This document shows, one piece after another, positions 2,528 through 37,000 of a stretch of 61,026 bases of DNA. Under the pieces are notes generated by a model, which saw only the letters and a list, made by a program, of their open reading frames with translations, was not told where the DNA came from and searched no databases. Location: NCBI GenBank assembly GCA_041666745.1, contig JBAYGI010000002.1, positions 102,291 through 163,316 on the forward strand. Direction: 5' to 3'. The DNA comes from Candidatus Magasanikiibacteriota bacterium. Its GTDB lineage: Bacteria; Patescibacteriota; Patescibacteriia; Magasanikbacterales; GWA2-37-8. The stretch's first letter is position 1. Every line of letters begins with the position of its first letter. The translations under genes and the position numbers were made by a program.

Positions 2528-3132
2528 AAAAGCTTGTTTTACTATTTTTAGTTGTATGTTTATTTTCTGCCAACAAAGTATTGGCGGTAGGTGTAGTTGA
2601 TTCAGATGGTGATGGCCTAAACGATGAGCTAGAATTAAAATTGGGTACGGATGTTCAGAATCCGGATAGTGATGGTGATGGTTTCAAAGATGGGGAAGAG
2701 GTGTTCAATGGATACAATCCACTAGTCGGTGATCGTGATCAAAGTCTAAAACGCAGGGTAGAGGTGGATCTGAGCACGCAAAAAATAAAATATTATTTTA
2801 ACAATGTTTTAATTGGTGTCGCTCCGGTTTCGACCGGTGTGGTTGGTCACGATACCCCTACCGGTCAGTTTAATATTATTCGCAAATTACCGGTTTATCG
2901 TTATGTTGGTCCGGGATATAATTTACCTAATACCAAATGGAATTTAGAGTTTAAACGTAGTTTTTATTTGCATGGCGCTTATTGGCACAATCAGTTTGGT
3001 ATTCGACCGATGAGTCATGGTTGCGTGAATATTGGTTATAAAGATGCGGAAAAAATTTACAAATTCTTGAAAGTGGGCGATAGTGTAAAAATCAGCGGCA
3101 AAACCCCGCGTCATTCCTTGGCTAAAAAATAA
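2524..3132 (+). CDS. L,D-transpeptidase (YkuD) with N-terminal TSP3-like Asp-rich repeats
   Basis: Signal peptide, DSDGDGLND / DSDGDGFKDGEE repeats and catalytic motif SHGCVNI. ATGA overlap with the upstream gene. Confidence 0.8.
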   Translation: MKKLVLLFLVVCLFSANKVLAVGVVDSDGDGLNDELELKLGTDVQNPDSDGDGFKDGEEVFNGYNPLVGDRDQSLKRRVEVDLSTQKIKYYFNNVLIGVAPVSTGVVGHDTPTGQFNIIRKLPVYRYVGPGYNLPNTKWNLEFKRSFYLHGAYWHNQFGIRPMSHGCVNIGYKDAEKIYKFLKVGDSVKISGKTPRHSLAKK

Positions 3133-15738: not shown

Positions 15739-16593
15739 ATGAATGAAAAACTTTTTAACATCGACTACCTCAAACACCTTTGTCAAAAGTACAGTTTACG
15801 TCCATCCAAAGAATATGGCCAAAATTATCTAATCAACCCGGAAGTCATAGACACTATGATTACCGTCAGCGGTGTAAATAAAAAAGACACAGTCGTGGAA
15901 GTTGGTCCGGGATTTGGTATCCTCACTTTAAGTTTGATGGAAAAAGTAAAAAAATTACTCGCTTTTGAAATTGAAATAAAACTCAAACCGTATTGGGAGG
16001 AAATCACCACACGTTTATCACAAAGTAAAGAAAATAATTTAGAAGTTGTCTGGGGAAATGTTTTACGAACTGATCCAAAAACCTTTCCCAAGAATTATAA
16101 AGTAGTCGCTAACTTACCCTATCAGATAACTTCACCGGTCTTAAAATTATTTCTGGAAGATTTGGAAAACAAACCAAAAGAAATGACTTTAATGGTACAA
16201 AAAGAAGTAGCCCAGAGGATTTGTGCCAAACCGGGGGATATGTCGGTACTTGGTCTATCGGTGCAATATTTTGGTCAAGCGGAAATAGTCGGCGAAGTTA
16301 AAAAAAATAATTTTTGGCCGGTACCACAAGTAGATTCCGCGATAATAAAAATAATTTTATCAAAAAGAACCACAACCAAAGCGGAAGATCAAGCATTTTT
16401 CAGATTAGTAAAAATCGGCTTCGCTCAAAAAAGAAAATTACTGATAAAAAATTTATTGCCGACAATCGGTAAACAACATAAAGAAAAGTTTTTGTCCGAA
16501 CTGAAAAAGATGGGTTTTACCGAGACAGTGCGCGCCCAAGAATTGAGTGTCGCGAATTGGCAACAACTAGTGAAGATATCCACATTACTCTAA
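15739..16593 (+). CDS. rsmA: 16S rRNA (adenine1518/1519-N6)-dimethyltransferase
   Basis: GQNYLINP, VVEVGPGFGILT and ANLPYQITSP motifs. Confidence 0.92.
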   Translation: MNEKLFNIDYLKHLCQKYSLRPSKEYGQNYLINPEVIDTMITVSGVNKKDTVVEVGPGFGILTLSLMEKVKKLLAFEIEIKLKPYWEEITTRLSQSKENNLEVVWGNVLRTDPKTFPKNYKVVANLPYQITSPVLKLFLEDLENKPKEMTLMVQKEVAQRICAKPGDMSVLGLSVQYFGQAEIVGEVKKNNFWPVPQVDSAIIKIILSKRTTTKAEDQAFFRLVKIGFAQKRKLLIKNLLPTIGKQHKEKFLSELKKMGFTETVRAQELSVANWQQLVKISTLL

Positions 16594-16600
16594 TGTGGAT
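16578..16600. promoter_or_regulatory. Palindrome ATCCACATTA-CTC-TAATGTGGAT (inverted DnaA-box-like half sites, possible terminator)
   Basis: Perfect 10-bp arms overlap the rsmA stop. Followed by TTTTTGTG and a TGTTATAAT -10-like element. Confidence 0.5.
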
Positions 16601-16634
16601 TTTTGTGTTATAATATTATAAAACAATTGGGCTT

Positions 16635-17276
16635 ATGGTAGATATTGAACAACCCGTCAACAACGGCTTATCCAAAGAGCAAAAGATAGGTTTTATCTTG
16701 TTGCTAGCTTTTGCTATTTTTGCGATTGGTTTGGGTATATTGCAAATTCGCAATACGATGTATGGGCATTTTGCGTTGAACAACCAAATTCCAAGTGTTT
16801 TAAAAGATCAGGTAAATACAGTTGATGCTTTGCGTTTTCGCGATACCGACAAAGATGGCATCAGCGATTTTGATGAATTATATATTTACGGCACCAGTCC
16901 ATATTTGGCCGATTCAGATAGTGATGGTGTTCTCGATGGAGAAGAAATCAAAAAAGGCCTCAACCCAGACTGCGCCGAGGGTACAGATTGTTCGTTTACC
17001 TCCGAGGCGGCGGTAGTGGTGACAAATGTGAGTAGTACCGATGCTTCGTTGGTGGTACCAGCCGATCAGCCGGCAGCGGATTTGGAACAGGCTATCCAAG
17101 ATCCTGTGCAAGTGCGCAAAATGTTGATCAGCGCCGGAGTAAGCCAAGATGTAGTAGATAAATTTTCCGACATTGAATTGATGAAAATGATTACCGAGAT
17201 TATGGCACCATCTTCGACAGCCAATAATATCAAAAGTTTAAATACAAATATTTCAGTTTCAGGAACCAAAAAATAA
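16635..17276 (+). CDS. Membrane-anchored protein with TSP3-like Asp-rich repeats
   Basis: One TM helix (IGFILLLAFAIFAIGLGIL), then DTDKDGISDFDE and DSDSDGVLDGEE. Confidence 0.6.
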   Translation: MVDIEQPVNNGLSKEQKIGFILLLAFAIFAIGLGILQIRNTMYGHFALNNQIPSVLKDQVNTVDALRFRDTDKDGISDFDELYIYGTSPYLADSDSDGVLDGEEIKKGLNPDCAEGTDCSFTSEAAVVVTNVSSTDASLVVPADQPAADLEQAIQDPVQVRKMLISAGVSQDVVDKFSDIELMKMITEIMAPSSTANNIKSLNTNISVSGTKK

Positions 17277-17289
17277 TTTCTAACAAAAT

Positions 17290-20200
17290 ATGTTTTTTCA
17301 AAAAATAAAAAAATTGACGATTGGTTTTGTGTTATCTGTTTTAATTTTTTCGTCAGTCGTTGGTTTTTTTATTTCTGCTGAACCGGCCAACGCCCAAGGT
17401 CCGGTACTTATATCCGGCGATATTCCAAGACAAGCCAGTGCTATCAAGGACATGATCAAAAACGGCTGGAAAATAGCCGTGCTCAATGCCGCTCAACAAG
17501 CCGTGTCTTATTTTTTACGTAAAGTTGCCTACGATACTGCCATGTATATTGCGTCCGGCAATAAAGGACAGGGTGCGTTTGTGCAAAGCAAAGGTTTTGG
17601 AGATTATTTGGCTTCAGCCGGTTCGGAGGCTGCCGGTACGGCGATCGAACAGCTCGGCAAAGGATTTGGATTGGATCTCTGTAAAATTCCTGATGTAAAA
17701 ATAGATTTAGCCTTGCGTATTGGCTTGCATTACAATTATGCTTTGGGAAGTCAACCTAGAAAGCCAGCCTGTAATTTGACAACCTTTGCCCAAAATTGGG
17801 GGAGTGACGCTTGGGCTAGTAAATACGGCGGTGGAAGCGGTCCTGGTGGTTTTGATGTCAACAAAGTTTTCAATAAAACTCTTGTGGTTGATGATGCTCC
17901 GATGGGGGTAGTACTAAAAACTACCGAAAAAATAGATCGTTTGGTAGTTAGACAAACCAATGCCGCTCAAGCTGACCGTGAAGAAGGCGCCGGTTTCAAA
18001 CCAGCAACTCGGTTGGTTTCCGGTGATATAAAAACACCTAGTCAAACAATCAAAAAACAGGCAGAAGACAATTCTCCTAGTGAACAAAACAAAAAAAGTC
18101 AGGCGCAAGTAGCGGCGGCGATGGGTTCGGGAGCGTATGAAATTCTTCCATCGACTTTGTCCTTGTTTTTAAATACTTTGGCCGGGCAGATGTTGAAAAA
18201 TTTTAAAGAAAACGGCATGTTGCCAGGTGGTCTTTGTGTGGGAAGTTTTGGTGGACCGGATTGTAAAGGCGGTCAAGGTAGTCAAGCTACAAATTTTGAG
18301 GCCGGTACATCAGTCAGTGGGCGTGCCGCCGCCGAAGCGACCTTTAGTGACTTTTTGACTATCAAATTGGACACATTATCTACTTATGATATTTTGGCTG
18401 AATTAAACAGCTGTGAATCTCACGGCCTATACAACTGTCGCGCTGATGGTGGAATAATATTGGCGTTACAACAAGCCAAACAAGAAGATCCGTTCACCAT
18501 CCAAGAAGCTATGGACAAAGGTTGGTTAAAACGCGAGTGGAAATTGATTCCACCTTCACGCGTGGCCGACAACCAAATCGGAAATGATGCTGATAAAAAT
18601 TGTTACAACAACAATTATTGCTACAGCAATCTTCAAGTATTACGTCAGTTGCGTATTTTCCCATTGGGCATGGAAATTGCCGCCAAAAATAGTGATCCGG
18701 ATCGCCCATGGACATTGAAAGAAGTTGTTGATGGTTTTTATAAATGTAATTACGAAAAAACTCCGGACGGTACAGTAGTTGGTATAAACTATGATCCGGA
18801 AAATTATCCACTTTGTCATTTGGTGGATCCAAACTGGGTGATCAAATTGGAACAAACTCGTTGTGATGCCAAAGCGTACAGTTCAGTGCCATTGAGCGCG
18901 GATGTGCCGGATCGTGTAAACGAATGTGTGGATCTCAAGACTTGTATCGGTGTGGACAAAGATAAAAATTGTGTCGGTTATGGTAATTGTGTGCGTGAAA
19001 AAAATGTATGGAAATTTGACGCAAAATCTTGTGATGCGCGCAATGTCACTTGTCGGGCTTTTACAGATAGTGCCGGCAAATCCGTTGCGTATTTGTATCG
19101 CACATTGGATACCGGTGATTGCAATCAGGATACGGCCGGTTGTACCGCATATAGTTTGGAGCAAGACAATGCTGGTTGGGAACCATTGGCAAAAACAGGT
19201 TATGGTAGTTATTCTACTGGTATTTATTTAAATAAAAATGTTTCGACCGCCTGTTCGGCCAATTCAGCTGGTTGTACGGCTCTCAAATTACCGGTTGATA
19301 CTGATCCAAATCAAAATAATTTTTATCCGATAAAAAAAGCGCCGGATTATTTGAATTGTTATGATAAAAATGCTGACAGAACAGATGGCATTCAATGGCC
19401 AAAAACATTTTCAGATATTTACCAATTAAAACCACGTCCGGAGTGTAGAGATTACGCTCAAGTTTGTATTGCCGACGAAGTTGGTTGCGCCACCTACAAA
19501 CTGGCCGATGATCCCGAGGCTCTACCTATTCCGGGTAAATTTACCCCGACAGAAACAGCTAGTGGTGTTCTTCAAAATTGGAACGATCAATGTAATCAAA
19601 AATGTGCCGGTTATGCGGCTTATCGTGAAATGCCGTCGAATTATTCTGCCGGAAATCCATTGGCATATATTATTCCACCATCCAAATACAACAACGGTGA
19701 ATCCGGAGCGACTTGCGGTGAAGATGAAGTTGGTTGCAGTAGTTTCACCAATATGGCCACTACTGAAGGTGGCGGTGAAAAGGTAGAAAATTTTACCGAT
19801 TTACGCGCTTGTATAAAACCGGATGTAAACAAACAAAAGAATTTTTATACTTATGAAGGTTCGACACTCGGTGGTTACCAACTGCAATCATATACTTTGG
19901 AAAAAGATGTAGACGGCGGACCAAAGACTGTATTTAACACACCACAAGACAAAATCGATGCCGGTCTATACAAATGTAATGCTGATCTATACAAACTTCA
20001 CCAAGAAGATACCGAATGTCATCAATTCAACGATGACAGAGGCAACATCTACTACGCGATGATGTCGCATACTATCGTAGTATCGACAGATTGCACACCG
20101 TATCGTCTCAACAGTACGGAATTAGCCGGTCCGAAGCAATGTTTTAATAATGGTGAATATAACGAAAAAGATGGCGCCTGCTATTACAACGGTCTGCCAT

Positions 20201-23200
20201 CAGGGGTAAAAGTAAGCACTCAAAATAGCGTGTCTTGTGATGCAAAAGTGGTATCTTGTCGTGCCTACAAAGGGAATAATGGTAATAATATCAAGACGGT
20301 AAATATTGCCGGAAACAATCCGGTGGAAACTTTTGAAAATCAATCGGATGTTACCGCTGCCAATGGCTGGAGAACAACTGACGGCAATATCAACTGGTCA
20401 GCCGAATCCACTCGCGCCGGTGAACATTCATTGGGGTATGTTGGGGGTGGAAAAGTATATCAAACTGTTGATCTCAAACATGACAGTCTGGATTTGCAGG
20501 GTAACACTAGTTATAGTTTGAGTTTTTGGGCAAAAGGCAATGGTGTGAATGTAGATGTGTCGATGACGGATGTCAAAAATAATATTGTTACCGCCGGCAC
20601 AATTACCGCCAACACTTCATGGCAACAGTTCACCTTCAATTTGGTTGAATTGCAATCTTCAGGCACCAGTACTATCAATTTCAAATTAAATAAAAGCGGT
20701 AATTTATTCTTGGATAATATTCGTTTGACCAAAGTGTCCGATTTGTTGTATTTGGTAAAAGATTCTTTGAAAGTTGATCCGATTTGTGATGACAACCAAA
20801 CAGACAATTTGCCGGGCGTGGCTTTGGGTTGTAATGCTTACGAAGGACCGTTAAATAGTAACGGAGACAATCTTTTCTTCCTTACCAATTTCAGTTTCTT
20901 GTGTCGTGAGGGAGCGATTGGTTGTACGGCATTTATGGATACATATAACAAAATCACCGACAGTGGTCCACGCGCATACAATGTTAGTCTGATCGGAAAA
21001 ACCGGTACAGAAGTCATCGCGCAAATCGGTGGTGATTCATACAAATGTCAAATAGAACAAGGCAAGACAAGTTGTTTTGTAAATGTCAAAGGACACACCA
21101 AAGATGAGATAGAAAAAGCCACTGGCGCAAAAGCAGAATTTGGAAATTCTACTTATTATATCCCAGCCGACACGGACAGTGCCGACCCGATTTATCTAGT
21201 AGCCAAAAATGACCAAGTGGACTATACCTGTAATTCTGCGGACTTGGGTTGTACTTATGCTGGTATGCAAAAAAGCACACCTAGTGGTGATCAATTTACA
21301 ACAACAACCATAAAACTAGATCCAGCTCAACTGGAAACCGGTGGTTCTGATGCCAGTGGCAATCCATTGCCGGTAATATTATGTCAACAACAGGCATTGG
21401 GTTGTGGTGTTTTTGGTTCCAGTCTAGGTGACGCGTATTTCAAAGATCCGGCTGTGATTGGCGCCAAAATCTGTGCATATAATCCAAGTGTCACAAAAAA
21501 TAACAACAAAGTAAGTGGTTGGTTTTGGAAAGGCGTCGGTGTGTGCGGTAATACCTCCAAAACTTGTTCTGAAGATAGCGATTGCACAGATCCGAAATCC
21601 AACACCTGTATAGACAAAGACGTCCAACCATGTTATCCGGATTATCTCCAAAATGGAAACAGCTACGGCCTCTGGTCATACGGCAACAAAGATAAATACA
21701 ACAATTTCGTCGGTGAATGTCCTGCTGAGGAAGATGCCTGTACCGAATTTGTCGATCGCAACGACAATGACAAGTCATATCCATTTATCAAAGACAGCAA
21801 AATATCCGAAGGGGATTGTGGTGGAATGGTGAGCCAAAAAGCCGGCTGTGCTATTTTTGATCAAACCGACAATCCAAATAAATTTTGGAACACCGCCGCG
21901 ACATATAGACTAAGTGATAACTCTGCCCCAGGTCAATTCAGAGATATGTCCAAAGGCACAAAAGTCCAACCACAGAATATGGGGGACAAAAACAATGCGA
22001 ATGTTATAATCAAGGTAAAAAGAGATAGAGAGTGCGCGGAGTGGTTGCAGTGTAGATCGCCTCATCCGGTTATAGATGAAAGTTCAGGTGTGTGGAAACA
22101 ATCTTGTCAAATGATAGGGCGTTGTAATAAGTTGGAAACTGGAGTAGGGAGTGATTCTTCCATGTGTGGAAATTTCAATGACAACAAACATGAATTTTCC
22201 AATCAAATATTAACTGAAAAATTGTACCAAACCAGAGATGTATCATGGGAAGGTATGGATTTGTCAGGTTTTTCCGTTTTGAATACCTATCCGTTGGAAG
22301 AAATGACACAAGTTAATATTGGTAGTGGTTCTTCAGAAAATTGGGTTTTAGCCAAAACTGTGCCTTGCGGAGGAAATAATTGTGCTTATGCCAGTCAGCC
22401 AAAACTTTTTGTATGTAAGGATGATAAATTGCCATGTGGCGCTTCTAAAGAAGGTAAATGTATCAATGGAAATTGCATTAAAAATATTGCTGAAAATGAA
22501 GAAAAAAACCAAGCCCAACAAACCAGTGTGGTAGTAACCGATTTTATAGGAGATTCTTGTCGCGCTTATCCGGAAAAAGACTCACCATTCCCAAATATTC
22601 CGTCAGTAGGTCAGAGCAAGAATTTTTCTACTGTTAATATTTGCAGTGAGGGTAATAAAACTTCCGGAACAGATGCGTATAAATGCGAGTGTGATTATTT
22701 AAAAGTGACTTATCAGAGCATAATAAAATATTTTAATTTAGATAATCCTAATAGTGTTAAACCTATAAGTGGTTCAGAGTCCGGCAAGGCTCCAGTCGGT
22801 ATTTGTTTGGGTGGAGATTCGAATGGTGCAAAATGCGCGTCGGATAGTGAATGTCTAAATAAATCAGGAAACCCAGATGGATCTTGTCAAATGCAGGATC
22901 GTGAATCCAAAGTTATCGGTTGGCATGGGTTTTGTATAGAACAGGATAAGTCTAGGGCTGTAAACGCTGACAACTCGCAGTACCCTTGTTTGACATGGTA
23001 TCCAGTAGACAATGTTTTGGGTACACCGGACATAAACGGCAATCATGTTGAGGCCGGATATGTTCCACCAGATAAAACTGACCCATTCTATTGTTTGCAG
23101 GCAAATATGTATGTACAACCAAAGGTATTTAGAGTATGTAAAAAATCACCTGATTTAGTATGTGATAATGAAAGTTGCGCAGATAAATATAAGACTACAT

Positions 23201-25224
23201 ATGATTCAAATAATAAAGTTGTTTATAACCCTTGTCCGGAGGGATATCATACTGGTGTTAATAATGGTGTTTATCGTATTGATTGTGGAAATCCTAGCGA
23301 TGATCCGGATGTAATGACGGACTGTACTTCGGGAGGGTGGAGTACAAACGGTTGTAATATTAGATGTGAATTAGATAGTCCAAGTGATGATTTGTGGATT
23401 TTAAAATCAAAGTATGCCGTCAAAGGCTTGGTTGATTATGCTTACAAATCATCTTTGTATAAACAACAAGCAGTCGCCTGTTCTTTTGTTGTAGAAATGA
23501 AAGACTCGATAGCCTACACGAATCGTTTATGGGAAAAAAGTGGTTATACTATTGATGCTTCCACTACAGCCTATCAAAACAAACTAAATTATAAATTTGA
23601 TAGTTCAAAAGCACCATTTGGTTATGCTGCTAATCCGGGAAATAAATTTTTGCCAGTTCCTTGGTGTTCAAGTCCATCTAGCGATGTGTTTGCTATGCCT
23701 AAATCAGATAATGGTTGTGAAAATAATTATTTACCAAGCGATAATGATAATTTTGGTCGTCCTTATTCCGGTTGGCAGTTTGGATCAAATGGTTCTGCTT
23801 GTGCAACCAGTGCAGATTGCAATCAACAAGTGAATTGTGGCAATAAAAGTAAATGCATGCGCCAATGTACAACAGATAGTGATTGTGTAGGAATGGAAAT
23901 ACCAACAGACTCCAGTGGATCCCCTATATTTCCTCCTAAAAAACCATCATGCAATTTATCTACGCACTATTGCTACGGTATTGCTGTATCAGTGGGACCA
24001 GTAGATCCATGTCTTTCGTCAGTAGGAGAACAATTAGAAAATGCCACGTGTGGAGAAAAAAATAAATTAAATTTTTGTGTTGGTACGTGTGGTAATAACA
24101 GCAACCAAACGTGTGCTACAACTGAAGATTGCTACGCACAGCTATGTTCCAACGGCTCTTGTTTGAATAAAGATCAAAAAGAGTCAGATGACAATAATGC
24201 TCTCAAAGATTACAACGAAGAAACCGTTAAAGGTGCGTGGAGTCTTTTGAGTCAATTGTTTGTCACCTTAAAAGATGATGCTGCTAAATTTTTTAAAGAT
24301 AAAGGATTTCAAGATTCAAAAGCGGATTTTATTGCTACAAAAAATTTAACCAGCAAGAGTGGTGTGTCTAAAGTTCCAAAAGTTCATCCAGTAGGTGATT
24401 GTGTTGGCAGTGAACGATGTAAAGAAATAAACACGAATGCTATTTCAATAAATGGCAAATATGACCAGAATGTAATACTTACAAATAGTCCGGCATATGT
24501 AGAGACGAAATTTTTTGCTTATGCTGACAAGGATCAGATGCCGATAAAACAGATAACCGTGGATTGGAACGACGACACCACAGCGGTTAAATTAGGTGGT
24601 CCAAATAGTTTTTATCGCAATCGAAGAGGTACGGTAAATGGCCAGTGCGCCACTTCTATTAATTTTGAAGGAAAGAAGTGTGTTGCACCTCTGTTTGATA
24701 TGGAAAAAACAGATAGATTTTTTTCAGACATGTCAGTGGCAGTGGTGGGAGGTAAACAATTGTATGATCTCCACGCTTGGAATGAAGTAAATTGTGATAC
24801 CGACAAAGATTGTCAAAATCTTTATCAATGTCAAAGCAATGATTTCGCTTCTAATTTCGGTCATGTTCTAAGTAGGTCTTGTGATAATAGTTATTATAAT
24901 TTTGGACATTATTATATTTGTGATAAAAATAGTGACAAATATGATCCGACATGCTCTGTAGCCACAGAAAAAGAGAAACAGTATTTCTCTGATGGATGTT
25001 GTGTGTTCCAACCAAAAGTACAAGTATTAGACAATTGGGGGTGGTGCAATGGGAAGTGTCCGGGAGGGGCAGATGGGACGGATGGGTGTTATAATGGAAA
25101 AGATAATAATGGCAAACCAATTTTTGAATGTAGTAATTTCATTAGTAATAATCCTTACACCAGTTTTGGTTCCAAAGTATTAGTAGCACCAAACAATAGT
25201 GTTGTTAACAATTTAACTTTTTAG
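17290..25224 (+). CDS. Giant (2644 aa) secreted cysteine-rich protein with an internal CBM/jelly-roll-like domain
   Basis: Signal/anchor sequence ending AEPANAQG. At least 13 copies of a G/S-C-x-x-[YF]-type motif. Six C-x4-[DE]-C motifs. Around aa 1010-1150 (nt 20317-20740) the sequence resembles CBM_4_9 (YSLSFWAKG...FLDNIRL). Confidence 0.85.
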   Translation: MFFQKIKKLTIGFVLSVLIFSSVVGFFISAEPANAQGPVLISGDIPRQASAIKDMIKNGWKIAVLNAAQQAVSYFLRKVAYDTAMYIASGNKGQGAFVQSKGFGDYLASAGSEAAGTAIEQLGKGFGLDLCKIPDVKIDLALRIGLHYNYALGSQPRKPACNLTTFAQNWGSDAWASKYGGGSGPGGFDVNKVFNKTLVVDDAPMGVVLKTTEKIDRLVVRQTNAAQADREEGAGFKPATRLVSGDIKTPSQTIKKQAEDNSPSEQNKKSQAQVAAAMGSGAYEILPSTLSLFLNTLAGQMLKNFKENGMLPGGLCVGSFGGPDCKGGQGSQATNFEAGTSVSGRAAAEATFSDFLTIKLDTLSTYDILAELNSCESHGLYNCRADGGIILALQQAKQEDPFTIQEAMDKGWLKREWKLIPPSRVADNQIGNDADKNCYNNNYCYSNLQVLRQLRIFPLGMEIAAKNSDPDRPWTLKEVVDGFYKCNYEKTPDGTVVGINYDPENYPLCHLVDPNWVIKLEQTRCDAKAYSSVPLSADVPDRVNECVDLKTCIGVDKDKNCVGYGNCVREKNVWKFDAKSCDARNVTCRAFTDSAGKSVAYLYRTLDTGDCNQDTAGCTAYSLEQDNAGWEPLAKTGYGSYSTGIYLNKNVSTACSANSAGCTALKLPVDTDPNQNNFYPIKKAPDYLNCYDKNADRTDGIQWPKTFSDIYQLKPRPECRDYAQVCIADEVGCATYKLADDPEALPIPGKFTPTETASGVLQNWNDQCNQKCAGYAAYREMPSNYSAGNPLAYIIPPSKYNNGESGATCGEDEVGCSSFTNMATTEGGGEKVENFTDLRACIKPDVNKQKNFYTYEGSTLGGYQLQSYTLEKDVDGGPKTVFNTPQDKIDAGLYKCNADLYKLHQEDTECHQFNDDRGNIYYAMMSHTIVVSTDCTPYRLNSTELAGPKQCFNNGEYNEKDGACYYNGLPSGVKVSTQNSVSCDAKVVSCRAYKGNNGNNIKTVNIAGNNPVETFENQSDVTAANGWRTTDGNINWSAESTRAGEHSLGYVGGGKVYQTVDLKHDSLDLQGNTSYSLSFWAKGNGVNVDVSMTDVKNNIVTAGTITANTSWQQFTFNLVELQSSGTSTINFKLNKSGNLFLDNIRLTKVSDLLYLVKDSLKVDPICDDNQTDNLPGVALGCNAYEGPLNSNGDNLFFLTNFSFLCREGAIGCTAFMDTYNKITDSGPRAYNVSLIGKTGTEVIAQIGGDSYKCQIEQGKTSCFVNVKGHTKDEIEKATGAKAEFGNSTYYIPADTDSADPIYLVAKNDQVDYTCNSADLGCTYAGMQKSTPSGDQFTTTTIKLDPAQLETGGSDASGNPLPVILCQQQALGCGVFGSSLGDAYFKDPAVIGAKICAYNPSVTKNNNKVSGWFWKGVGVCGNTSKTCSEDSDCTDPKSNTCIDKDVQPCYPDYLQNGNSYGLWSYGNKDKYNNFVGECPAEEDACTEFVDRNDNDKSYPFIKDSKISEGDCGGMVSQKAGCAIFDQTDNPNKFWNTAATYRLSDNSAPGQFRDMSKGTKVQPQNMGDKNNANVIIKVKRDRECAEWLQCRSPHPVIDESSGVWKQSCQMIGRCNKLETGVGSDSSMCGNFNDNKHEFSNQILTEKLYQTRDVSWEGMDLSGFSVLNTYPLEEMTQVNIGSGSSENWVLAKTVPCGGNNCAYASQPKLFVCKDDKLPCGASKEGKCINGNCIKNIAENEEKNQAQQTSVVVTDFIGDSCRAYPEKDSPFPNIPSVGQSKNFSTVNICSEGNKTSGTDAYKCECDYLKVTYQSIIKYFNLDNPNSVKPISGSESGKAPVGICLGGDSNGAKCASDSECLNKSGNPDGSCQMQDRESKVIGWHGFCIEQDKSRAVNADNSQYPCLTWYPVDNVLGTPDINGNHVEAGYVPPDKTDPFYCLQANMYVQPKVFRVCKKSPDLVCDNESCADKYKTTYDSNNKVVYNPCPEGYHTGVNNGVYRIDCGNPSDDPDVMTDCTSGGWSTNGCNIRCELDSPSDDLWILKSKYAVKGLVDYAYKSSLYKQQAVACSFVVEMKDSIAYTNRLWEKSGYTIDASTTAYQNKLNYKFDSSKAPFGYAANPGNKFLPVPWCSSPSSDVFAMPKSDNGCENNYLPSDNDNFGRPYSGWQFGSNGSACATSADCNQQVNCGNKSKCMRQCTTDSDCVGMEIPTDSSGSPIFPPKKPSCNLSTHYCYGIAVSVGPVDPCLSSVGEQLENATCGEKNKLNFCVGTCGNNSNQTCATTEDCYAQLCSNGSCLNKDQKESDDNNALKDYNEETVKGAWSLLSQLFVTLKDDAAKFFKDKGFQDSKADFIATKNLTSKSGVSKVPKVHPVGDCVGSERCKEINTNAISINGKYDQNVILTNSPAYVETKFFAYADKDQMPIKQITVDWNDDTTAVKLGGPNSFYRNRRGTVNGQCATSINFEGKKCVAPLFDMEKTDRFFSDMSVAVVGGKQLYDLHAWNEVNCDTDKDCQNLYQCQSNDFASNFGHVLSRSCDNSYYNFGHYYICDKNSDKYDPTCSVATEKEKQYFSDGCCVFQPKVQVLDNWGWCNGKCPGGADGTDGCYNGKDNNGKPIFECSNFISNNPYTSFGSKVLVAPNNSVVNNLTF

Positions 25225-25242
25225 TTATTAAAATAAAAAAAC

Positions 25243-25275
25243 AAAAAACATCCAGATTAAAAATGGATGTTTTTT
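25243..25275 (+). terminator. Rho-independent terminator of the giant gene
   Basis: AAAAAACATCCA-N9-TGGATGTTTTTT. Confidence 0.7.
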
Positions 25276-25413
25276 ATTATCCTCAATATTCAAATAAAAA
25301 TATTTAAAAACTAAGGTTTGCCCGCGGCTGTCAGGGGATGACAGCTTTGCAGATGCGGGCAAGAGAGGGGAACTGTTTGTCGGCGAGCAAGGTGGCCAAG
25401 TCAAGTGTCTGCA

Positions 25414-25938
25414 TCACTTGACCTTGCGGGTGAAGCCACCACATTCGCCACCGAAGTCTTCGGGGCAGGTGTACATGTGAGTGAAGTCGCTGTTTAACTT
25501 TACGTTTTCTTCGTAAACAGCAACATGATCAACGAACAGCACATAGCACTTGCCATTCTTGTCATGTTCGGTTTTCACCTCACACTCTTCCCACCAGTTC
25601 TGGTCCGAAGACCAGATTCCTTCGATCAAACCTTCATACTTGCACTTCTCTGTAGTCTCGCCGTCATTCGCTACGGTCGAGTCGCTCGAGTCAGTGCTAC
25701 TGTCGGTGGAATCGCTGGTGCCGTCGTTGCCGACGGCATCCTTGCTGTCCGAACTGCCGTCGTGCGAGCCAATCTCTTTGCTCGCGTCGATCTTGGCATC
25801 AACTTCCGGTTCCGGTGGTGGACATGGCTTCCCAGTCTCACAACCGGAAACCAAAAACAGGTTTGGATTACATCCGCTGGCGAACACCACCAGACAGACA
25901 GCGGCCACGAGGACCGCCAGACACCGTGCCATTTTCAT
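25414..25938 (-). CDS. Lipoprotein of unknown function, compositionally foreign (GC-rich)
   Basis: MKMARCLAVLVAAVCLVVFASGC gives a signal peptide plus lipobox, followed by a Ser/Asp-rich linker and a Cys-containing C-terminal domain. GC-rich codons are unlike the neighbours. An alternative TTG start lies at 25953. Confidence 0.65.
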   Translation of the reverse strand: MKMARCLAVLVAAVCLVVFASGCNPNLFLVSGCETGKPCPPPEPEVDAKIDASKEIGSHDGSSDSKDAVGNDGTSDSTDSSTDSSDSTVANDGETTEKCKYEGLIEGIWSSDQNWWEECEVKTEHDKNGKCYVLFVDHVAVYEENVKLNSDFTHMYTCPEDFGGECGGFTRKVK

Positions 25939-26021
25939 GGCCTGCCTCACCAACCCCGTGGTCCGGGATTCGCAATCACCGTGTATCTTTGGGTTGTGCG
26001 AAGTTGCACTACTTTGGATTA

Positions 26022-26091
26022 CGGTGGTATGTTTGTTTGTCTAGATTCCCGTTTTCACAGGAATGACCAGTCGCAAACAAACATTCCACCG
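26022..26091. repeat. Family C hairpin nested inside an 18-bp outer inverted repeat
   Basis: CGGTGGTATGTTTGTTTG ... GATTCCCGTTTTCACAGGAATGAC ... CAAACAAACATTCCACCG. Sits at the right edge of the GC-rich island. Confidence 0.8.
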
Positions 26092-26235
26092 CAATCTCGC
26101 TCACTTTTTCCTCTCTCTTGGTTGTTGGCTGTATTTAGTTCTCGTATTTAAACAAAAACCAAAACAACACTTTTCAAAGAACGAACCTGAGACGATACCA
26201 CATTCCAGTGGTTTTGTCAACTATGAGTCTCTCTC

Positions 26236-26311
26236 TTTTAGCTTGTTTTAGGTAAATATACCTATATACTGACATATTTTATACCTGTGGACAAGTGGGT
26301 GGTGGATAACT
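26236..26311 (+). repeat. Direct repeat copy 1 (60 bp identical plus a 16-bp diverged tail)
   Basis: TTTTAGCTTGTTTTAGGTAAATATACCTATATACTGACATATTTTATACCTGTGGACAAG is identical to 27852-27911. Both tails end in TGGATAACT. Confidence 0.95.
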
Positions 26312-26328
26312 CCCCAACCGTGCTGGTT

Positions 26329-26355
26329 AATTTGTGGATTGTACATCCACAAATT
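26329..26355. promoter_or_regulatory. Palindromic operator-like site AATTTGTGGAT-TGTAC-ATCCACAAATT abutting a TTGACA box
   Basis: Perfect 11-bp arms. TTGACA at 26356-26361 follows, with a 17-nt spacer to TTTAAT. Confidence 0.55.
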
Positions 26356-26424
26356 TTGACAAATTTATGGATATGTGTTTTAATATATTTAATTCAATAT
26401 TATTTATTTAACCTAATTTTACGT

Positions 26425-27558
26425 ATGATAAAAAGATTTTATAATGATTTAGACAAATGGATAAAACCAGGCAAAGCCCTAATTATTTATGGTCCACGCC
26501 GAGCCGGCAAAACTACGTTACTACGTAATTTTTTGGCTACTACCAAATATAAATATAAATTGGATTCAGGTGATAATATTTCAACACAACAAATATTAAG
26601 CTCGCGTGATTTTAAAACAATTTTAGGCTATGTGGAGGGTTATGAATTATTGGCAATAGATGAAGCGCAAAATATTCCTGATATTGGCTTTGGATTAAAA
26701 ATACTTACAGACGAACGACCGGATTTGCGCATTATTGCCACGGGGTCATCTTCTTTTGATTTATCCAGACAAGTGGGCGAGCCACTTACCGGTAGAAAGA
26801 ATACGGTTATTTTATATCCTTTTGCGCAAATGGAACTTTTGAATAAGTATAATCATTTTGAATTAAAACAAAACTTAGCGGATTTTCTAATTTTTGGATC
26901 TTATCCGGAAGTAGTTATGACGAAAAACAGAATTGATAAAATCACTCTTTTAGAAGAGTTGATGAATTCTTACTTATTGAAAGATATATTGTCTTTAGAA
27001 AAAGTAAAAGGATCAAAAGTGTTGCTCGATTTAGTCAAGTTGTTGGCTTTTCAAATCGGCAATGAAGTATCTCTAAACGAAATGGCAAGTCAGTTGAGTT
27101 TGGATGTAAAAACAGTTGCGCGTTATTTGGATTTATTAGAAAAAAGTTTTGTGATTATTTCTTTGGGTGGTTATGGTAGTAACTTACGAAAAGAGGTCAG
27201 TACTAAAAAGAAATATTATTTTTTGGATACTGGTATTCGCAACGTGGTGATTTCCCAATTTAACAGTTTAGAGGATCGCAATGATATTGGGTTTTTGTGG
27301 GAAAATTTCATAGCGGTTGAAAGATTGAAAAATAGATCTTATAATAATATTTATGGCGGTTATTATTTTTGGAGAACTTACGAACAGGAAGAAATTGATT
27401 TAGTGGAAGATCGTGATGGAAAATTGTTTGGCAGTGAATGCAAATGGTCAGCTCAGAAAGGCGAAAAAACTTTTGCCCCTAAAACTTGGACAAAAGAATA
27501 TCCAAAGGCCGGTTTCAAAGTGATTACCCCTGAAAATTATTTGGATTTTATTGCTTAA
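26425..27558 (+). CDS. AAA+ ATPase of the DUF4143 / COG1373 type
   Basis: Walker A IIYGPRRAGKTTLL, Walker B LLAIDEAQ and a C-terminal EIDLVE restriction-endonuclease-like tail. The listed ORF start 26287 was trimmed to ATG 26425. Confidence 0.8.
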   Translation: MIKRFYNDLDKWIKPGKALIIYGPRRAGKTTLLRNFLATTKYKYKLDSGDNISTQQILSSRDFKTILGYVEGYELLAIDEAQNIPDIGFGLKILTDERPDLRIIATGSSSFDLSRQVGEPLTGRKNTVILYPFAQMELLNKYNHFELKQNLADFLIFGSYPEVVMTKNRIDKITLLEELMNSYLLKDILSLEKVKGSKVLLDLVKLLAFQIGNEVSLNEMASQLSLDVKTVARYLDLLEKSFVIISLGGYGSNLRKEVSTKKKYYFLDTGIRNVVISQFNSLEDRNDIGFLWENFIAVERLKNRSYNNIYGGYYFWRTYEQEEIDLVEDRDGKLFGSECKWSAQKGEKTFAPKTWTKEYPKAGFKVITPENYLDFIA

Positions 27559-27566
27559 CAACTTAT

Positions 27567-27794
27567 CTTTTTGGTTCTGCCGTTCATGGTAAAACTACCA
27601 AATATAGTGATATTGATGTCGCTGTAGTCTCTCAAAAACAGGGAAATTTTTGGGAGGATCGTCAACGTTTGTCCGTAGCTGGTTTACAAGTAGACAATCG
27701 AATTGAATCGCATTTTTTTTCAAGAAAAGATTTTTCAGATTTAAATGATCCTTTAGTATACGAAATTCGTAAAACAGGGATTAGGATTGTATAA
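27567..27794 (+). pseudogene. 5'-truncated minimal nucleotidyltransferase (MNT-type) remnant
   Basis: LFGSAVHGKTTKYSDIDVAVVS...LVYEIRKTGIRIV then stop. The frame opens only at 27534 (just after an in-frame TGA) and has no start codon. Confidence 0.65.
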
Positions 27795-27808
27795 GTATTA
27801 TAACACCT

Positions 27809-27836
27809 AACTACGTCAAATTGACGTAGTTTTTTG
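27809..27836 (+). terminator. Rho-independent terminator
   Basis: AACTACGTCA-AAT-TGACGTAGTT followed by TTTTGTTT. Confidence 0.7.
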
Positions 27837-27851
27837 TTTGAGCTGTGTATT

Positions 27852-27927
27852 TTTTAGCTTGTTTTAGGTAAATATACCTATATACTGACATATTTTATAC
27901 CTGTGGACAAGGTTGTTGTGGATAACT
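27852..27927 (+). repeat. Direct repeat copy 2
   Basis: Identical 60 bp to 26236-26295. Contains TGTGGACAA and a perfect TGTGGATAA (the reverse of TTATCCACA) at 27917-27925. Confidence 0.95.
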
Positions 27928-27969
27928 ATTTTTCGACCAATATTACCATTTGTCCACTATTCTTAAATG

Positions 27970-27978
27970 TGGTATAAT
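27970..27978 (+). promoter_or_regulatory. Extended -10 promoter element TGgTATAAT for the T4SS-like operon
   Basis: Lies inside the listed ORF start (ATGTGGTATAAT). For that reason the CDS start was moved to ATG 28003. Confidence 0.55.
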
Positions 27979-28002
27979 ATCCGTGTAATATTATTCAAAA
28001 AC

Positions 28003-35852: not shown

Positions 35853-36281
35853 ATGGAACAGTTTGTCGTGCCACAATTTATCGACGTTGAAGATAAAATT
35901 TTCGGACCGGTAACCGCGCGTCAGTTTGTTATTTTATTGGTGGCAGGTTTGGTTTTATTTGTCGCGTATAAAATAGCCGATCTCACTTTGTTTATTTTTA
36001 TGTTAGCTACTATTGGAGGGGGTTCTTTGATTTTGGCTTTTGTAAAAATTAACGGACAAGCTTTTCATTATTTTCTTTTAAATTTATTTCAGACATTACG
36101 TCGCCCCAGTCGTCGTATTTGGTATAAGAGTGACAGCAAAGAAGAGCTTGAGGAATTGCGTAAAGGTGAAAAAATTGAGATAATGGAGAAGCCTTCTGAG
36201 ATACCGAGATTATCTTACAATCGTATTCGTGATTTATCGTTGGCGGTGAATACCGGTGGTTATTATAAGCCGGAAGAATAA
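35853..36281 (+). CDS. PrgI-family (VirB3-like) small membrane protein
   Basis: MEQFVVPQFIDVEDKIFGPVTARQFVILLVAG followed by two TM helices. It sits directly upstream of VirB4, as in Gram-positive T4SS loci. Confidence 0.7.
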   Translation: MEQFVVPQFIDVEDKIFGPVTARQFVILLVAGLVLFVAYKIADLTLFIFMLATIGGGSLILAFVKINGQAFHYFLLNLFQTLRRPSRRIWYKSDSKEELEELRKGEKIEIMEKPSEIPRLSYNRIRDLSLAVNTGGYYKPEE

Positions 36282-36285
36282 AATA

Positions 36286-36309
36286 GATTCCCGCTTTCGC
36301 GGGAATGAC
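36286..36309. repeat. Family C hairpin element
   Basis: GATTCCCGCTTTCGCGGGAATGAC, located in the 37-nt gap between the PrgI-like gene and the next gene. Confidence 0.85.
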
Positions 36310-36318
36310 ATATACATT

Positions 36319-36999
36319 ATGAAGAACAAAAAAGCGGCGGCCAAAAAATCTACACTTCCTGCGGCTCAGCGTTTTATAAACATATCTGAAATAAAACAGG
36401 ATTCTTTGGTTTTGAAAGATGGAACTTTGCGCGCGATTTTAATGGTGTCGAGTATTAATTTTGCTTTAAAAAATGAGGACGAACAAAATGCTACTATTTC
36501 CGCGTATGTTAGTTTTTTAAATTCTTTGGACCATCCTTTGCAAGTGGTGATTCAATCGCGTGAATTGTATATCCAGCCTTATTTGCAAGATTTAATAAAG
36601 CGTGAACATGAACAGACAAACGAGTTATTGCGCGCTCAAATTGCGGATTATCGTTCATTCGTGACGGAGCTGGTGGAAATGGGGGAGATTATGAGTAAAA
36701 ATTTTTATGTAGTGGTGCCATATGATCCATTGTCCAACAAGCAAAAAAGTTTTTGGTCACGTTTGAGCGAAGTTTTCAATCCGGTAATCACGGTAAAATT
36801 AAAAGCGGAACGTTTCGCCAAACGTAAATATGATTTGGATCAGCGGGTGCGTCAGGTGGAATCCGGTCTGCGAAGTATCGGGTTGGAAGTTGTGCGTTTG
36901 GATACACAATCATTGGTGGAGGTATTATATTCGACTTATAATCCGGATATCGCTCTCACCGAGCGTTTGACACCGCTTAACGAAATGAAATTAGAATAA
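36319..36999 (+). CDS. VirB4 N-terminal-domain-like protein (separate ORF)
   Basis: ISEIKQDSLVLKDGTLRAILMVSSINFALKNEDEQ resembles the N-terminus of Gram-positive VirB4/TrsE/PrgJ proteins. Start trimmed to ATG 36319 because the upstream part of the listed ORF is the repeat. Confidence 0.5.
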   Translation: MKNKKAAAKKSTLPAAQRFINISEIKQDSLVLKDGTLRAILMVSSINFALKNEDEQNATISAYVSFLNSLDHPLQVVIQSRELYIQPYLQDLIKREHEQTNELLRAQIADYRSFVTELVEMGEIMSKNFYVVVPYDPLSNKQKSFWSRLSEVFNPVITVKLKAERFAKRKYDLDQRVRQVESGLRSIGLEVVRLDTQSLVEVLYSTYNPDIALTERLTPLNEMKLE

Positions 37000-37000
37000 T

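What the first reader, a model, noticed from the sequence alone, without database searches (positions are those of the whole stretch)
17290..25224. 2644-aa secreted protein built from two recurring cysteine motifs around a CBM-like jelly-roll
This is a single uninterrupted 7.9-kb ORF with an N-terminal signal/anchor (…FISAEPANAQG). In the first ~1700 aa a short motif [GS]-C-x-x-[YF] recurs at least 13 times: VTCRAF, AGCTAY, AGCTAL, VGCATY, VGCSSF, VSCRAY, LGCNAY, IGCTAF, LGCTYA, LGCGVF, DACTEF, AGCAIF, DSCRAY. In the C-terminal half a C-x4-[DE]-C motif recurs at least six times: CSEDSDC, CASDSEC, CATSADC, CTTDSDC, CATTEDC, CDTDKDC. This resembles the Asp-rich cysteine repeats known from myxobacterial and eukaryote-like extracellular proteins. 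Residues ~1010-1150 (nt 20317-20740) look like a carbohydrate-binding jelly-roll (NGW...YSLSFWAKG...FLDNIRL). Such a heavily disulfide-dependent extracellular giant is unusual for a tiny AT-rich genome. It sits between a TSP3-repeat membrane protein and the T4SS-like operon, which suggests a host or surface attachment role.
Basis: partly seen in the sequence, partly recalled or inferred. Interest (0 to 1): 0.65.

Follow-up and report, generated by a model that had tools for sequence, protein, structure and literature searches.

The report
Giant disulfide-rich exported protein beside T4SS
This is a real, intact gene for a 2,644-residue exported, cysteine-cross-linked protein with one sugar-binding domain; it belongs to a large undescribed family of ultra-small (Patescibacteria) bacteria, is always paired with a small calcium-site membrane protein, usually sits next to their type IV secretion genes, and so is a candidate for the unknown outer, host-touching part of that machine.

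Summary
ORF 17290-25224 is uninterrupted (2,644 aa). An independent assembly of the source run and a second groundwater study both reproduce it. It has 122 cysteines, and 82 of them are at least 90% conserved in 47 full-length homologues. Both motifs exceed shuffled expectation. The first motif is really a C-x6-C-x2-[YF] unit with about 12 copies. Residues 1013-1156 are a CBM4/16/22-type jelly-roll, supported by a sequence profile and by predicted fold. Nothing else matched Pfam, NCBIfam or PDB sequences, and Foldseek found no fold match for the C-terminal 1,200 residues.

The family is large: 1,244 clusters at 50% identity and 535 GTDB species genomes, all unnamed. A roughly 210-aa membrane protein with TSP3-like calcium motifs lies directly upstream in 75 of 76 loci. 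A polytopic, extended-VirB6-like membrane protein lies downstream in 45 of 53 loci, with stop-start gaps of 2-4 nt in two distant relatives. PrgI/TrsD/VirB4 usually follow. The reverse test, starting from the VirB6-like gene in metagenome contigs, found the giant upstream in 34 of 45 loci.

Most likely this is a Sec-exported, disulfide-locked extracellular protein, held by its partner, that works with the Patescibacterial T4SS in cell-surface or host contact. That role is inferred. The myxobacterial-repeat comparison is not supported.

The parts
16576..16600 (+). Palindrome ATATCCACATTACTCTAATGTGGAT overlapping the ksgA stop codon. It is terminator-like for ksgA and possibly an operator (ATCCACA/TGTGGAT arms).
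   Evidence: The 7-mer occurs within 200 nt upstream of the partner gene in 23/82 loci and of the VirB6-like gene in 21/54, against 0-7% upstream of seven control genes.
16606..16614 (+). Extended -10 element, TGTTATAAT. Inferred promoter of the partner-giant bicistron.
   Evidence: Read from the sequence. The consensus scan did not call it because there is no -35 element. Inference only.
16635..17276 (+). Partner gene, 213 aa: one N-terminal TM helix (aa 18-36), two DxDxDG (TSP3/EF-hand-like) calcium motifs, a C-x5-C pair (CAEGTDC) and an Ala/Ser-rich tail.
   Evidence: TSP3_bac E 0.0015, 18.8 bits, below the cut-off of 25. Directly upstream of the giant in 75/76 loci and in all 7 distant loci tested. 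82/82 partners carry a C-x4-6-C pair and 74/82 have at least one DxDxDG.
17290..25224 (+). Giant gene: 2,644 aa with 122 Cys. The start codon lies 13 nt after the partner's stop.
17290..17394 (+). Sec-type signal peptide, aa 1-35 (KIKK, an 18-residue hydrophobic core, AEPANA|QG).
   Evidence: P32 and A35 are nearly invariant. There was no signal-peptide predictor, so cleavage is inferred.
17395..18384 (+). N-terminal region, aa 36-365: predicted long helices, low model confidence, only 4 Cys, well conserved in sequence.
   Evidence: pLDDT 30-60; 52% mean identity; best-scoring region in distant homologues.
18385..18984 (+). Cys-rich alpha-plus-hairpin domain, aa 366-565 (10 Cys). It holds the family's most conserved peptides (RILPLGFEIA, HLIDPNWVI).
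   Evidence: (pLDDT about 75-91).
18985..20325 (+). Trunk I, aa 566-1012: beta-rich, 23 Cys, with C-x6-C-x2-[YF] units.
   Evidence: (aa 675-1012 pLDDT 75-93; aa 565-675 low).
20326..20757 (+). CBM4/16/22-type beta-jelly-roll, aa 1013-1156. It has no Cys. The FE...DN motifs typical of the structural calcium site are conserved (F1015, E1016, D1142, N1143).
   Evidence: Conserved residues. The link between these residues and a calcium site rests on general knowledge of CBM4/9/22 and was not tested.
20758..23094 (+). Trunk II, aa 1157-1935: Cys-rich beta domains, modelled with high confidence where covered. It includes the small C-x6-C-x5-C-x7-C knots at 1419-1440 and 1839-1866.
   Evidence: (aa 1484-1944 pLDDT 80-94; model pTM 0.72). 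No PDB fold match. Residues 1236-1444 were not modelled.
23095..24375 (+). Variable region, aa 1936-2362: 19-23% identity, large length differences between homologues, variable Cys content, low model confidence.
   Evidence: (segment lengths 48-580 and 111-442 aa).
24376..25221 (+). Conserved C-terminal beta domain, aa 2363-2644 (motif VQVxDNWGWCNG). No LPXTG motif and no TM anchor.
   Evidence: (pLDDT 90-97 for aa 2314-2634). No PDB match by sequence or by fold.
25248..25275 (+). Terminator-like hairpin ACATCCA-N9-TGGATGT followed by TTTTT.
   Evidence: Read from the sequence. The scan missed it because the loop is 9 nt.
25414..25953 (-). Convergent small lipoprotein gene (179 aa, lipobox ASGC, 10 Cys) in a GC-rich patch.
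   Evidence: A GC spike of at least 12 points lies within 2 kb downstream of the giant in 50/61 loci, and at least 20 of these encode a minus-strand lipoprotein.
26236..27927 (+). Inserted AAA_14/DUF4143 ATPase cassette bracketed by a 76-nt direct repeat (95% identical, spacing 1,616 nt). The insertion duplicated the promoter region of the T4SS operon.
27967..30831 (+). First gene of the T4SS operon: a 954-aa polytopic membrane protein (about 6 TM helices in aa 36-333) with a long hydrophilic tail. Its topology is like an extended VirB6.
   Evidence: Homologues follow the giant in 45/53 loci and in 4/7 distant loci, with stop-start gaps of 2-4 nt in L005 and L006. There is no Pfam or PDB sequence match, so the VirB6 assignment rests on topology only.
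35853..38869 (+). T4SS core genes: PrgI/VirB3-like, TrsD-like (VirB4 N-domain protein) and the VirB4 ATPase.
   Evidence: Named following PMC12102498.

Best explanation
Shown:
- The gene encodes an exported, heavily disulfide-bonded, multi-domain extracellular protein.
- It belongs to a large, unnamed family confined to Patescibacteria.
- It carries one CBM4/16/22-type glycan-binding jelly-roll. In front of its conserved C-terminal domain there is a fast-evolving segment rich in insertions and deletions.
- It sits 13 nt after a small partner gene, with terminator-like hairpins on both sides of the pair.
- The pair lies next to the chromosomal monoderm-type T4SS operon, whose first gene is the extended-VirB6-like membrane protein.

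Inferred:
- The signal peptide is cleaved and the protein has no anchor of its own. The partner, a single-pass membrane protein with two calcium-binding motifs, therefore probably holds it at the cell surface, likely through the conserved, helix-rich N-terminal region.
- The rigid disulfide-locked body projects the lectin domain and the variable region outward.
- The assembly acts together with the T4SS as its extracellular cell-contact part. Its job would be to recognise and hold the surface polysaccharide of another (host) cell.
For: Export and disulfides:
- Signal peptide with a conserved AxA|Q site.
- 82 of 122 Cys are at least 90% conserved down to about 30% identity.
- 71 of 88 homologues have an even Cys count (binomial p = 5e-9), and neighbouring Cys are lost in pairs.
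- 114 of 146 invariant residues (78%) are C, G, W, P, Y or F, and only one His is conserved, which points to a structural or binding protein and away from an enzyme.

CBM:
-.

Family size:
- 88 full-length hits.
- 1,244 clusters at 50% identity, 579 of them at E<1e-30. Nearly all are 2,500-3,300 aa with this domain at the N-terminus.
- 535 GTDB species genomes.

Partner:
- Directly upstream in 75/76 loci, in 9/9 gene-called contexts and in 7/7 distant loci.

T4SS link:
- The VirB6-like gene is downstream in 45/53 loci, and PrgI/TrsD lie within 10 kb in 33/47.
- It abuts the giant's stop codon (2-4 nt) in relatives that share only 25-28% identity over the matched part.
- A relative at 27% identity still has giant-X-VirB6ext-X-PrgI-TrsD.
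- Reverse test in metagenome contigs: the giant is upstream of the VirB6-like gene in 34/45 loci.
- Both operons share a promoter-proximal ATCCACA motif.

Literature:
- No PrgB-like adhesin was detected in the published Patescibacteria T4SS survey.
- KsgA is noted as frequent near virB4, which this gene order explains.
Against: - No experiment, transcript or proteome evidence exists; no RNA runs were found.
- The gene pair has its own terminator-like hairpin and an inferred promoter, so in this genome it is not part of the T4SS transcript.
- Linkage is not universal. 3 of 7 distant loci and a subgroup at 31-32% identity lack T4SS genes within 10 kb. About 10 of 45 VirB6-like loci lack the giant upstream.
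- Conserved gene order near housekeeping genes (prfA, tsaC, ksgA) could partly reflect inheritance and not function.
- The VirB6 assignment of the neighbour rests on topology only.
- The partner-giant interaction was not modelled.
- The N-terminal region is of low confidence.
- The CBM's ligand is unknown and could be the cell's own wall.
Confidence: 0.5

Rival explanations
1. It is a general envelope protein: a wall- or S-layer-associated scaffold or lectin of the cell's own surface, held by the small membrane partner. It would have no mechanistic tie to the T4SS, and the neighbourhood would be inherited gene order near ksgA.
For: - The pair has its own inferred promoter and a terminator-like hairpin.
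- The upstream synteny with prfA-tsaC-ksgA is very stable.
- The trunk is strongly conserved and appears once per locus.
- In L004, L007, L089 and some subgroups no T4SS genes lie within 10 kb.
- The CBM could bind the cell's own wall glycan.
Against: - Adjacency to the VirB6-like gene persists at 25-28% identity, with stop-start gaps of 2-4 nt.
- It survives rearrangement. Partner, giant and VirB6ext lie together with no other T4SS gene in the flank in L005 and L006. The order is inverted in L111.
- A shared promoter motif is absent from the control genes.
- A hypervariable exposed segment is more typical of proteins that face other organisms.
Confidence: 0.27
2. It is a freely secreted glycan-binding or degradative protein that harvests polysaccharide or wall material from the environment or from hosts. 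An as yet unrecognised catalytic domain would sit in the unmatched regions.
For: - A cleavable-looking signal peptide and no anchor.
- A CBM of the kind usually attached to glycoside hydrolases.
- Large regions with no fold assignment.
Against: - No catalytic family was detected by Pfam, NCBIfam or PDB profile searches.
- The conserved residues are overwhelmingly structural, with a single conserved His, and that one lies inside the CBM.
- An obligatory membrane partner argues for retention at the cell surface.
Confidence: 0.1
3. It is a polymorphic toxin or effector. A conserved delivery trunk would carry an exchangeable toxic module, exported or delivered with help of the T4SS.
For: - A conserved trunk and a variable distal region.
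- Proximity to a secretion system.
- A small, fast-evolving gene immediately downstream.
Against: - The variable part is internal, and the last 280 residues are conserved.
- The protein has a Sec signal, so it does not need the T4SS for export.
- The variable part is Cys-rich low-confidence sequence with no toxin-domain match.
- The downstream gene is a convergent lipoprotein, which is not the usual layout for a co-oriented immunity gene.
Confidence: 0.05
4. It is an assembly artefact or pseudogene: the long frame results from a collapsed or chimeric assembly.
For: No long-read confirmation was available.
Against: - An independent assembler gives an identical 9.7-kb contig, and a second study gives identical fragments without indels.
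- There are hundreds of co-linear full-length homologues.
- There is no internal tandem repetition at the DNA level that would invite collapse. The protein motifs are short and embedded in unique sequence.
Confidence: 0.01

Closest known systems
Chromosomal MPF-FATA-like T4SS of Patescibacteria (Quinonero-Coronel et al. 2025, PMC12102498; Wang et al. 2023, PMC10633639)
   Same: The giant lies beside exactly this system (VirB6-like, PrgI/VirB3, TrsD, VirB4, ending in comFC) in a class ABY1-type arrangement. The paper notes ksgA as a frequent neighbour of virB4.
   Different: I did not find the giant or its partner among the components the paper lists. They have no Pfam or NCBIfam match outside the CBM, and the paper draws genes without such matches as unannotated. 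The paper states that no PrgB-like adhesin was found. Membership of the machine is inferred here from synteny only.
Surface adhesins of Gram-positive conjugative T4SSs (PrgB of pCF10 and relatives)
   Same: Large exported proteins, encoded with a monoderm T4SS, that make cell-cell contact. This is the role proposed here.
   Different: There is no sequence or domain similarity and no LPXTG sortase signal. The giant is rich in disulfides, about twice the size, and tethering would be through a separate membrane partner.
CBM4 / CBM16 / CBM22 carbohydrate-binding modules (Pfam CBM_4_9, PF02018; PDB 1gui, 2zey, 4xuo)
   Same: Residues 1013-1156 share the beta-jelly-roll fold and significant profile similarity, including the FE...DN positions.
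   Different: Here the module is embedded in the middle of a non-enzymatic giant and is not appended to a glycoside hydrolase. The ligand is unknown. The window protein scores just under Pfam's gathering threshold.
Giant cell-surface proteins of episymbiotic ultra-small prokaryotes (e.g. SPEARE proteins of Nanohaloarchaeota; large membrane proteins of CPR and DPANN). Cited from my own knowledge, not checked here.
   Same: A very large exported protein in a reduced genome, presumed to mediate host contact.
   Different: No homology was tested or expected. This family is defined by conserved disulfide architecture, a single CBM, an obligatory small partner and T4SS linkage.
Myxococcus cysteine-rich repeat (TIGR02232 / DUF4215) and eukaryote-like Cys repeats (EGF, LDL-A, TSP).
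   Same: Short Cys spacings with acidic residues (C-x4-[DE]-C).
   Different: No HMM match at E<=1. The motifs are not tandem modules. They are scattered small knots within larger unique domains.

Membership tests
CBM_4_9 / CBM4-16-22 jelly-roll (domain, aa 1013-1156) | Significant match to the family's sequence model | tested here: met
   The single sequence scores 25.1 bits against Pfam GA 25.9, E 2.5e-5, which is just below the cut-off. Many homologues carry the precomputed PF02018 hit. The family profile against PDB gives 1gui E 9.6e-7 and 2zey E 6.7e-6.
CBM_4_9 / CBM4-16-22 jelly-roll (domain, aa 1013-1156) | Beta-jelly-roll fold | tested here: met
   The AF2 model has pLDDT about 85-93 in this region. 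Foldseek gives 4xuo (CBM22) E 1.2e-7 with TM 0.66 and rmsd 3.7, and 2zey (CBM16) with TM 0.65.
CBM_4_9 / CBM4-16-22 jelly-roll (domain, aa 1013-1156) | Binds a carbohydrate | not testable with these tools
   This needs glycan-array or pull-down assays with the isolated domain.
Myxococcus cysteine-rich repeat (TIGR02232 / PF13948) | HMM match to the repeat, in tandem copies | tested here: not met
   NCBIfam gave 0 families at E<=1. Pfam gave only CBM_4_9 at E<=1.
Bacterial TSP3 repeat protein (PF18884), for the 213-aa partner | HMM match above the gathering score | tested here: inconclusive
   E 0.0015, 18.8 bits against a cut-off of 25. Hits in orthologues are faint or weak.
Bacterial TSP3 repeat protein (PF18884), for the 213-aa partner | DxDxDG calcium-binding loops | tested here: met
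   There are two copies in the window protein. 74/82 orthologues have at least one copy and 53/82 have two. Calcium binding itself was not tested.
Gram-positive T4SS adhesin (PrgB type) | C-terminal LPXTG sortase signal and PrgB adhesin / Ig-like domains | tested here: not met
   The C-terminus ...VAPNNSVVNNLTF has no LPXTG and no TM segment. There is no Pfam match.
Component of the Patescibacteria-clade T4SS | Encoded with virB4 and other T4SS genes across lineages | tested here: met
   The VirB6-like gene is downstream in 45/53 loci and PrgI/TrsD in 33/47. Distant loci agree. The reverse test gives 34/45. The link is frequent but not universal.
Component of the Patescibacteria-clade T4SS | Physical or functional dependence on the machine | not testable with these tools
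   This needs co-purification, cryo-ET or genetics.
Extended VirB6 (for the 954-aa neighbour) | Five or more TM helices plus a large hydrophilic domain (as described in PMC12857230) | tested here: met
   A hydropathy scan finds about 6 TM segments in aa 36-333, followed by about 600 hydrophilic residues.
Extended VirB6 (for the 954-aa neighbour) | Sequence match to VirB6/TrbL/PrgH models or solved VirB6 structures | tested here: not met
   Pfam gave no families even at E<=10. The PDB profile search gave 0 hits at E<=10.
Sec-exported protein with a cleaved signal peptide | n-, h- and c-regions with an AxA cleavage site | tested here: met
   Seen by inspection and conservation. No dedicated predictor was available and cleavage was not shown.

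The most novel reading that the evidence does not exclude
The partner-giant pair is the missing extracellular half of the monoderm Patescibacterial T4SS. In this reading the calcium-loaded membrane partner and the extended VirB6 dock the giant's helical N-terminal region at the translocon. The disulfide-locked body would then form a wall-spanning stalk or cap. Its lectin domain and hypervariable segment would choose the host surface, so that host range is written in aa 1936-2362. The shared ATCCACA operator would switch both operons on together.
Probability: 0.3. Interest if true: 0.85.

Novelty: new variant of a known kind. Interest (0 to 1): 0.6.

Why it matters
The T4SS is essential for the epibiotic growth of the one Patescibacterium where this has been tested (Wang et al. 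2023). What it touches or transports is unknown, and the published survey found no adhesin for it.

This family offers a concrete, testable candidate for that missing outer component:
- It is conserved and widespread, with more than 1,000 clusters.
- It is almost entirely unmatched to known folds or families.
- It is genomically tied to the VirB6-like gene.
- It has a defined lectin domain and a defined variable segment.

It also shows that these reduced genomes spend about 8 kb on a protein that needs some 60 disulfides. That implies a capable extracytoplasmic oxidative folding system in these organisms.

Tried and rejected
I therefore could not look for DsbA, VKOR or thioredoxin genes, or score giant/T4SS co-occurrence across genomes.
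- DsbA near the giant: one distant relative (L087) has a membrane-anchored DsbA-like gene 5 kb upstream. Its homologue is not in the window or in any other flank. A C-x-x-C scan of the window ORFs outside 11-40 kb found only a CASC in one ORF (9599-10546), which I did not identify.
I rebuilt the alignments from locus DNA references.
- Lysozyme idea: I suspected aa 366-565 (helical, with a nearly invariant Glu462) might be lysozyme- or transglycosylase-like. Pfam found nothing at E<=10 and no such match appeared in the top 50 of either fold search, so I dropped it.
- Pore-forming-toxin and Cry/Vip hits: these have rmsd above 20 A over 400-600 columns and stem from their jelly-roll domains. I treated them as not meaningful.
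- No result: the PDB profile search for the VirB6-like neighbour and the RNA run search.
- Literature: searches for a description of this family found none. This is absence in the held library only.
- The + strand ORF 25525-26151 (208 aa) has no relatives and looks like a shadow of the minus-strand lipoprotein gene.
Full report
**The gene is real.** The frame 17290-25224 (+) is open for 2,644 codons. Window G+C is 33-45%. The neighbours are housekeeping genes of a Patescibacteria-type genome: groEL, prfA, tsaC and ksgA upstream, and PrgI, TrsD-like, VirB4 and comF-like genes downstream. A Logan contig of the best-matching run covers 16600-25400 with no difference or gap. A second groundwater study yields identical fragments with one substitution and no indels. 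No RNA run holds the sequence.

**The motifs.**
- The protein has 122 cysteines.
- Both motif classes exceed 2,000 shuffles: 11 against 2.8 +/- 1.6, and 6 against 0.65 +/- 0.83.
- The first motif is the end of a longer unit, C-x6-C-x2-[YF], with about 12 copies between aa 552 and 1520.
- In an alignment of 47 full-length homologues, some with only about 30% identity, 82 cysteines are at least 90% conserved.
- 71 of 88 family members have an even cysteine count (p = 5e-9), and the variable cysteines disappear in neighbouring pairs.
- This is what near-complete disulfide pairing would produce. It is still inference; no thiol chemistry was measured.
- 78% of the invariant positions are C, G, W, P, Y or F. 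The only conserved histidine lies in the CBM. The protein therefore looks structural or binding, not catalytic.

**Architecture.**
- aa 1-35: a Sec-type signal peptide with a conserved AxA|Q site.
- aa 36-365: well conserved in sequence, but modelled only as low-confidence long helices.
- aa 366-565: a confident Cys-rich alpha-plus-hairpin domain.
- aa 566-1012: trunk I, beta-rich.
- aa 1013-1156: the cysteine-free jelly-roll.
- aa 1157-1935: trunk II, with pLDDT 80-94 where modelled.
- aa 1936-2362: a variable, indel-rich segment (19-23% identity; segment lengths 48-580 and 111-442 aa).
- aa 2363-2644: a confident conserved beta domain (pLDDT 90-97).
- There is no C-terminal anchor or LPXTG motif.
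- The second model has pTM 0.72, which suggests a packed body and not beads on a string.
- Residues 1236-1444 were not modelled.

**What matches known families.**
- Only the jelly-roll matches. Pfam CBM_4_9 falls just under threshold. The family profile against PDB gives CBM4 at E 9.6e-7 and CBM16 at 6.7e-6. Foldseek gives CBM22, CBM16 and CBM4 with target TM about 0.65, and CenC-like modules of phage tail fibres in BFVD.
- The C-terminal 1,200 residues have no PDB match by sequence at E<=10. By fold the best hit is E 0.05 with probability below 0.5.

**Family and distribution.**
- The word-index search found 88 relatives, almost all 2,500-4,300 aa. All are labelled hypothetical, from Candidatus Magasanikbacteria or the 'Patescibacteria group'.
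- They are co-linear with the query over the N-terminal region, the trunks and the C-terminus.
- An exhaustive HMMER search with aa 36-600 found 1,244 clusters at 50% identity (579 below 1e-30). The domain is always at the N-terminus of giant proteins.
- 535 species-level GTDB genomes encode a relative.

**Context.**
- Partner: in 83 non-redundant loci, a 200-290-aa protein lies directly upstream in 75 of 76 cases. It has an N-terminal TM helix, DxDxDG calcium loops and a C-x4-6-C pair. It is also upstream in all seven distant loci, with gaps of 1-17 nt in eight of nine gene-called contexts. Its features are conserved.
- VirB6-like gene: a homologue of the 954-aa polytopic membrane protein is downstream in 45 of 53 loci. 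PrgI/TrsD lie within 10 kb in 33 of 47.
- Distant relatives: in two relatives with 25-28% identity over the matched part, this gene starts 2-4 nt after the giant's stop codon and no other T4SS gene lies in the flank. Another relative at 27% identity keeps giant-X-VirB6ext-X-PrgI-TrsD.
- Reverse test: starting from the VirB6-like gene in JGI/ENA metagenome contigs, the giant is upstream on the same strand in 34 of 45 loci and downstream in one.
- Exceptions: some lineages have the pair without nearby T4SS genes, and about ten VirB6-like loci lack the giant upstream.

**This genome's spacer.**
- The 2.7 kb between the giant and the T4SS operon holds a GC-rich convergent lipoprotein gene. This feature recurs in 50 of 61 loci.
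- It also holds an AAA_14/DUF4143 cassette bracketed by a 76-nt direct repeat that duplicated the operon's promoter region.
- Without the insertion the spacing would be about 1.1 kb, which is typical of relatives.

**Regulation lead.**
- The pair has a terminator-like palindrome with ATCCACA/TGTGGAT arms at the ksgA stop, an extended -10 element and its own terminator-like hairpin.
- The same 7-mer lies within 200 nt upstream of the partner gene in 28% of loci and of the VirB6-like gene in 39%. Upstream of seven control genes it occurs in 0-7%.
- That hints at co-regulation. The motif also occurs at other intergenic sites in the window, so it is not specific to these two operons.

**Literature.**
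- The Patescibacteria T4SS is described as MPF-FATA-like, chromosomal and lacking a relaxase. It is essential in Southlakia epibionticum. No PrgB-like adhesin was detected. ksgA is frequent near virB4, and comF/recG/radA in class ABY1.
- I found no description of this giant family or its partner.

**Interpretation.**
- Shown: an exported, disulfide-stabilised, CBM-bearing giant of a large unnamed family; an invariable small membrane partner; frequent and deep linkage to the VirB6-like first gene of the T4SS cluster.
- Inferred: signal-peptide cleavage, tethering by the partner, outward display of the lectin and variable segments, and a cell-contact role together with the T4SS.
- The main rival is an envelope lectin or scaffold unrelated to the T4SS.
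The oxidoreductase check and genome-wide co-occurrence scoring are therefore still to be done.

Noticed in passing
window 25300-26100 and the 2 kb downstream of the giant in loci L003-L085: A sharp GC-rich patch (55-78% against 32-49% for the locus) follows the giant gene in 50 of 61 related loci. In at least 20 of them it encodes a small, convergent, fast-evolving, Cys-containing lipoprotein (window: 25414-25953, minus strand, 179 aa). The proteins are barely alignable between genomes.
   Followed up: partly
window 26236-27927: An AAA_14/DUF4143 ATPase gene is bracketed by a 76-nt direct repeat (95% identical, spacing 1,616 nt) that duplicates the T4SS operon's promoter region. It looks like a recent insertion.
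   Followed up: partly
window 16576-16600, 26286-26309, 27902-27925, 54099, 54956, 60682: The DnaA-box-like word TTATCCACA occurs with up to one mismatch 44 times in the window, against 21 +/- 5 in shuffles. It sits at fixed distances upstream of the partner-giant pair (-57/-41) and of the VirB6-like gene (about -85) in many related genomes.
   Followed up: partly
window 2524-3132: A second small secreted protein with TSP3/EF-hand-like DxDxDG repeats (MKKLVLLFLVV...VVDSDGDGLNDELE...). It may be a paralogue-like relative of the giant's partner.
   Followed up: no
window 55063-59904: Another large exported protein (1,613 aa, signal peptide ending in ...GGSASAQTG, only 4 Cys). I did not analyse it.
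   Followed up: no
window 36256-38869: VirB4 appears as two adjacent genes. The upstream 247-aa product corresponds to the TrsD-like VirB4 N-domain protein, which PMC12102498 describes as the most abundant T4SS component in Patescibacteria. It is therefore not a frameshift.
   Followed up: partly
L087 1367-2200 and 4171-4920: In a distant relative, a 277-aa protein with a T4SS_pilin (PF18895) domain and a membrane-anchored DsbA-like oxidoreductase (CPYC) lie 5-8 kb upstream of the partner-giant pair.
   Followed up: partly
L111 9845-21112: In one metagenome contig the order is reversed, with the VirB6-like gene first and the giant 4.5 kb downstream. The module is therefore kept together through rearrangement.
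   Followed up: partly
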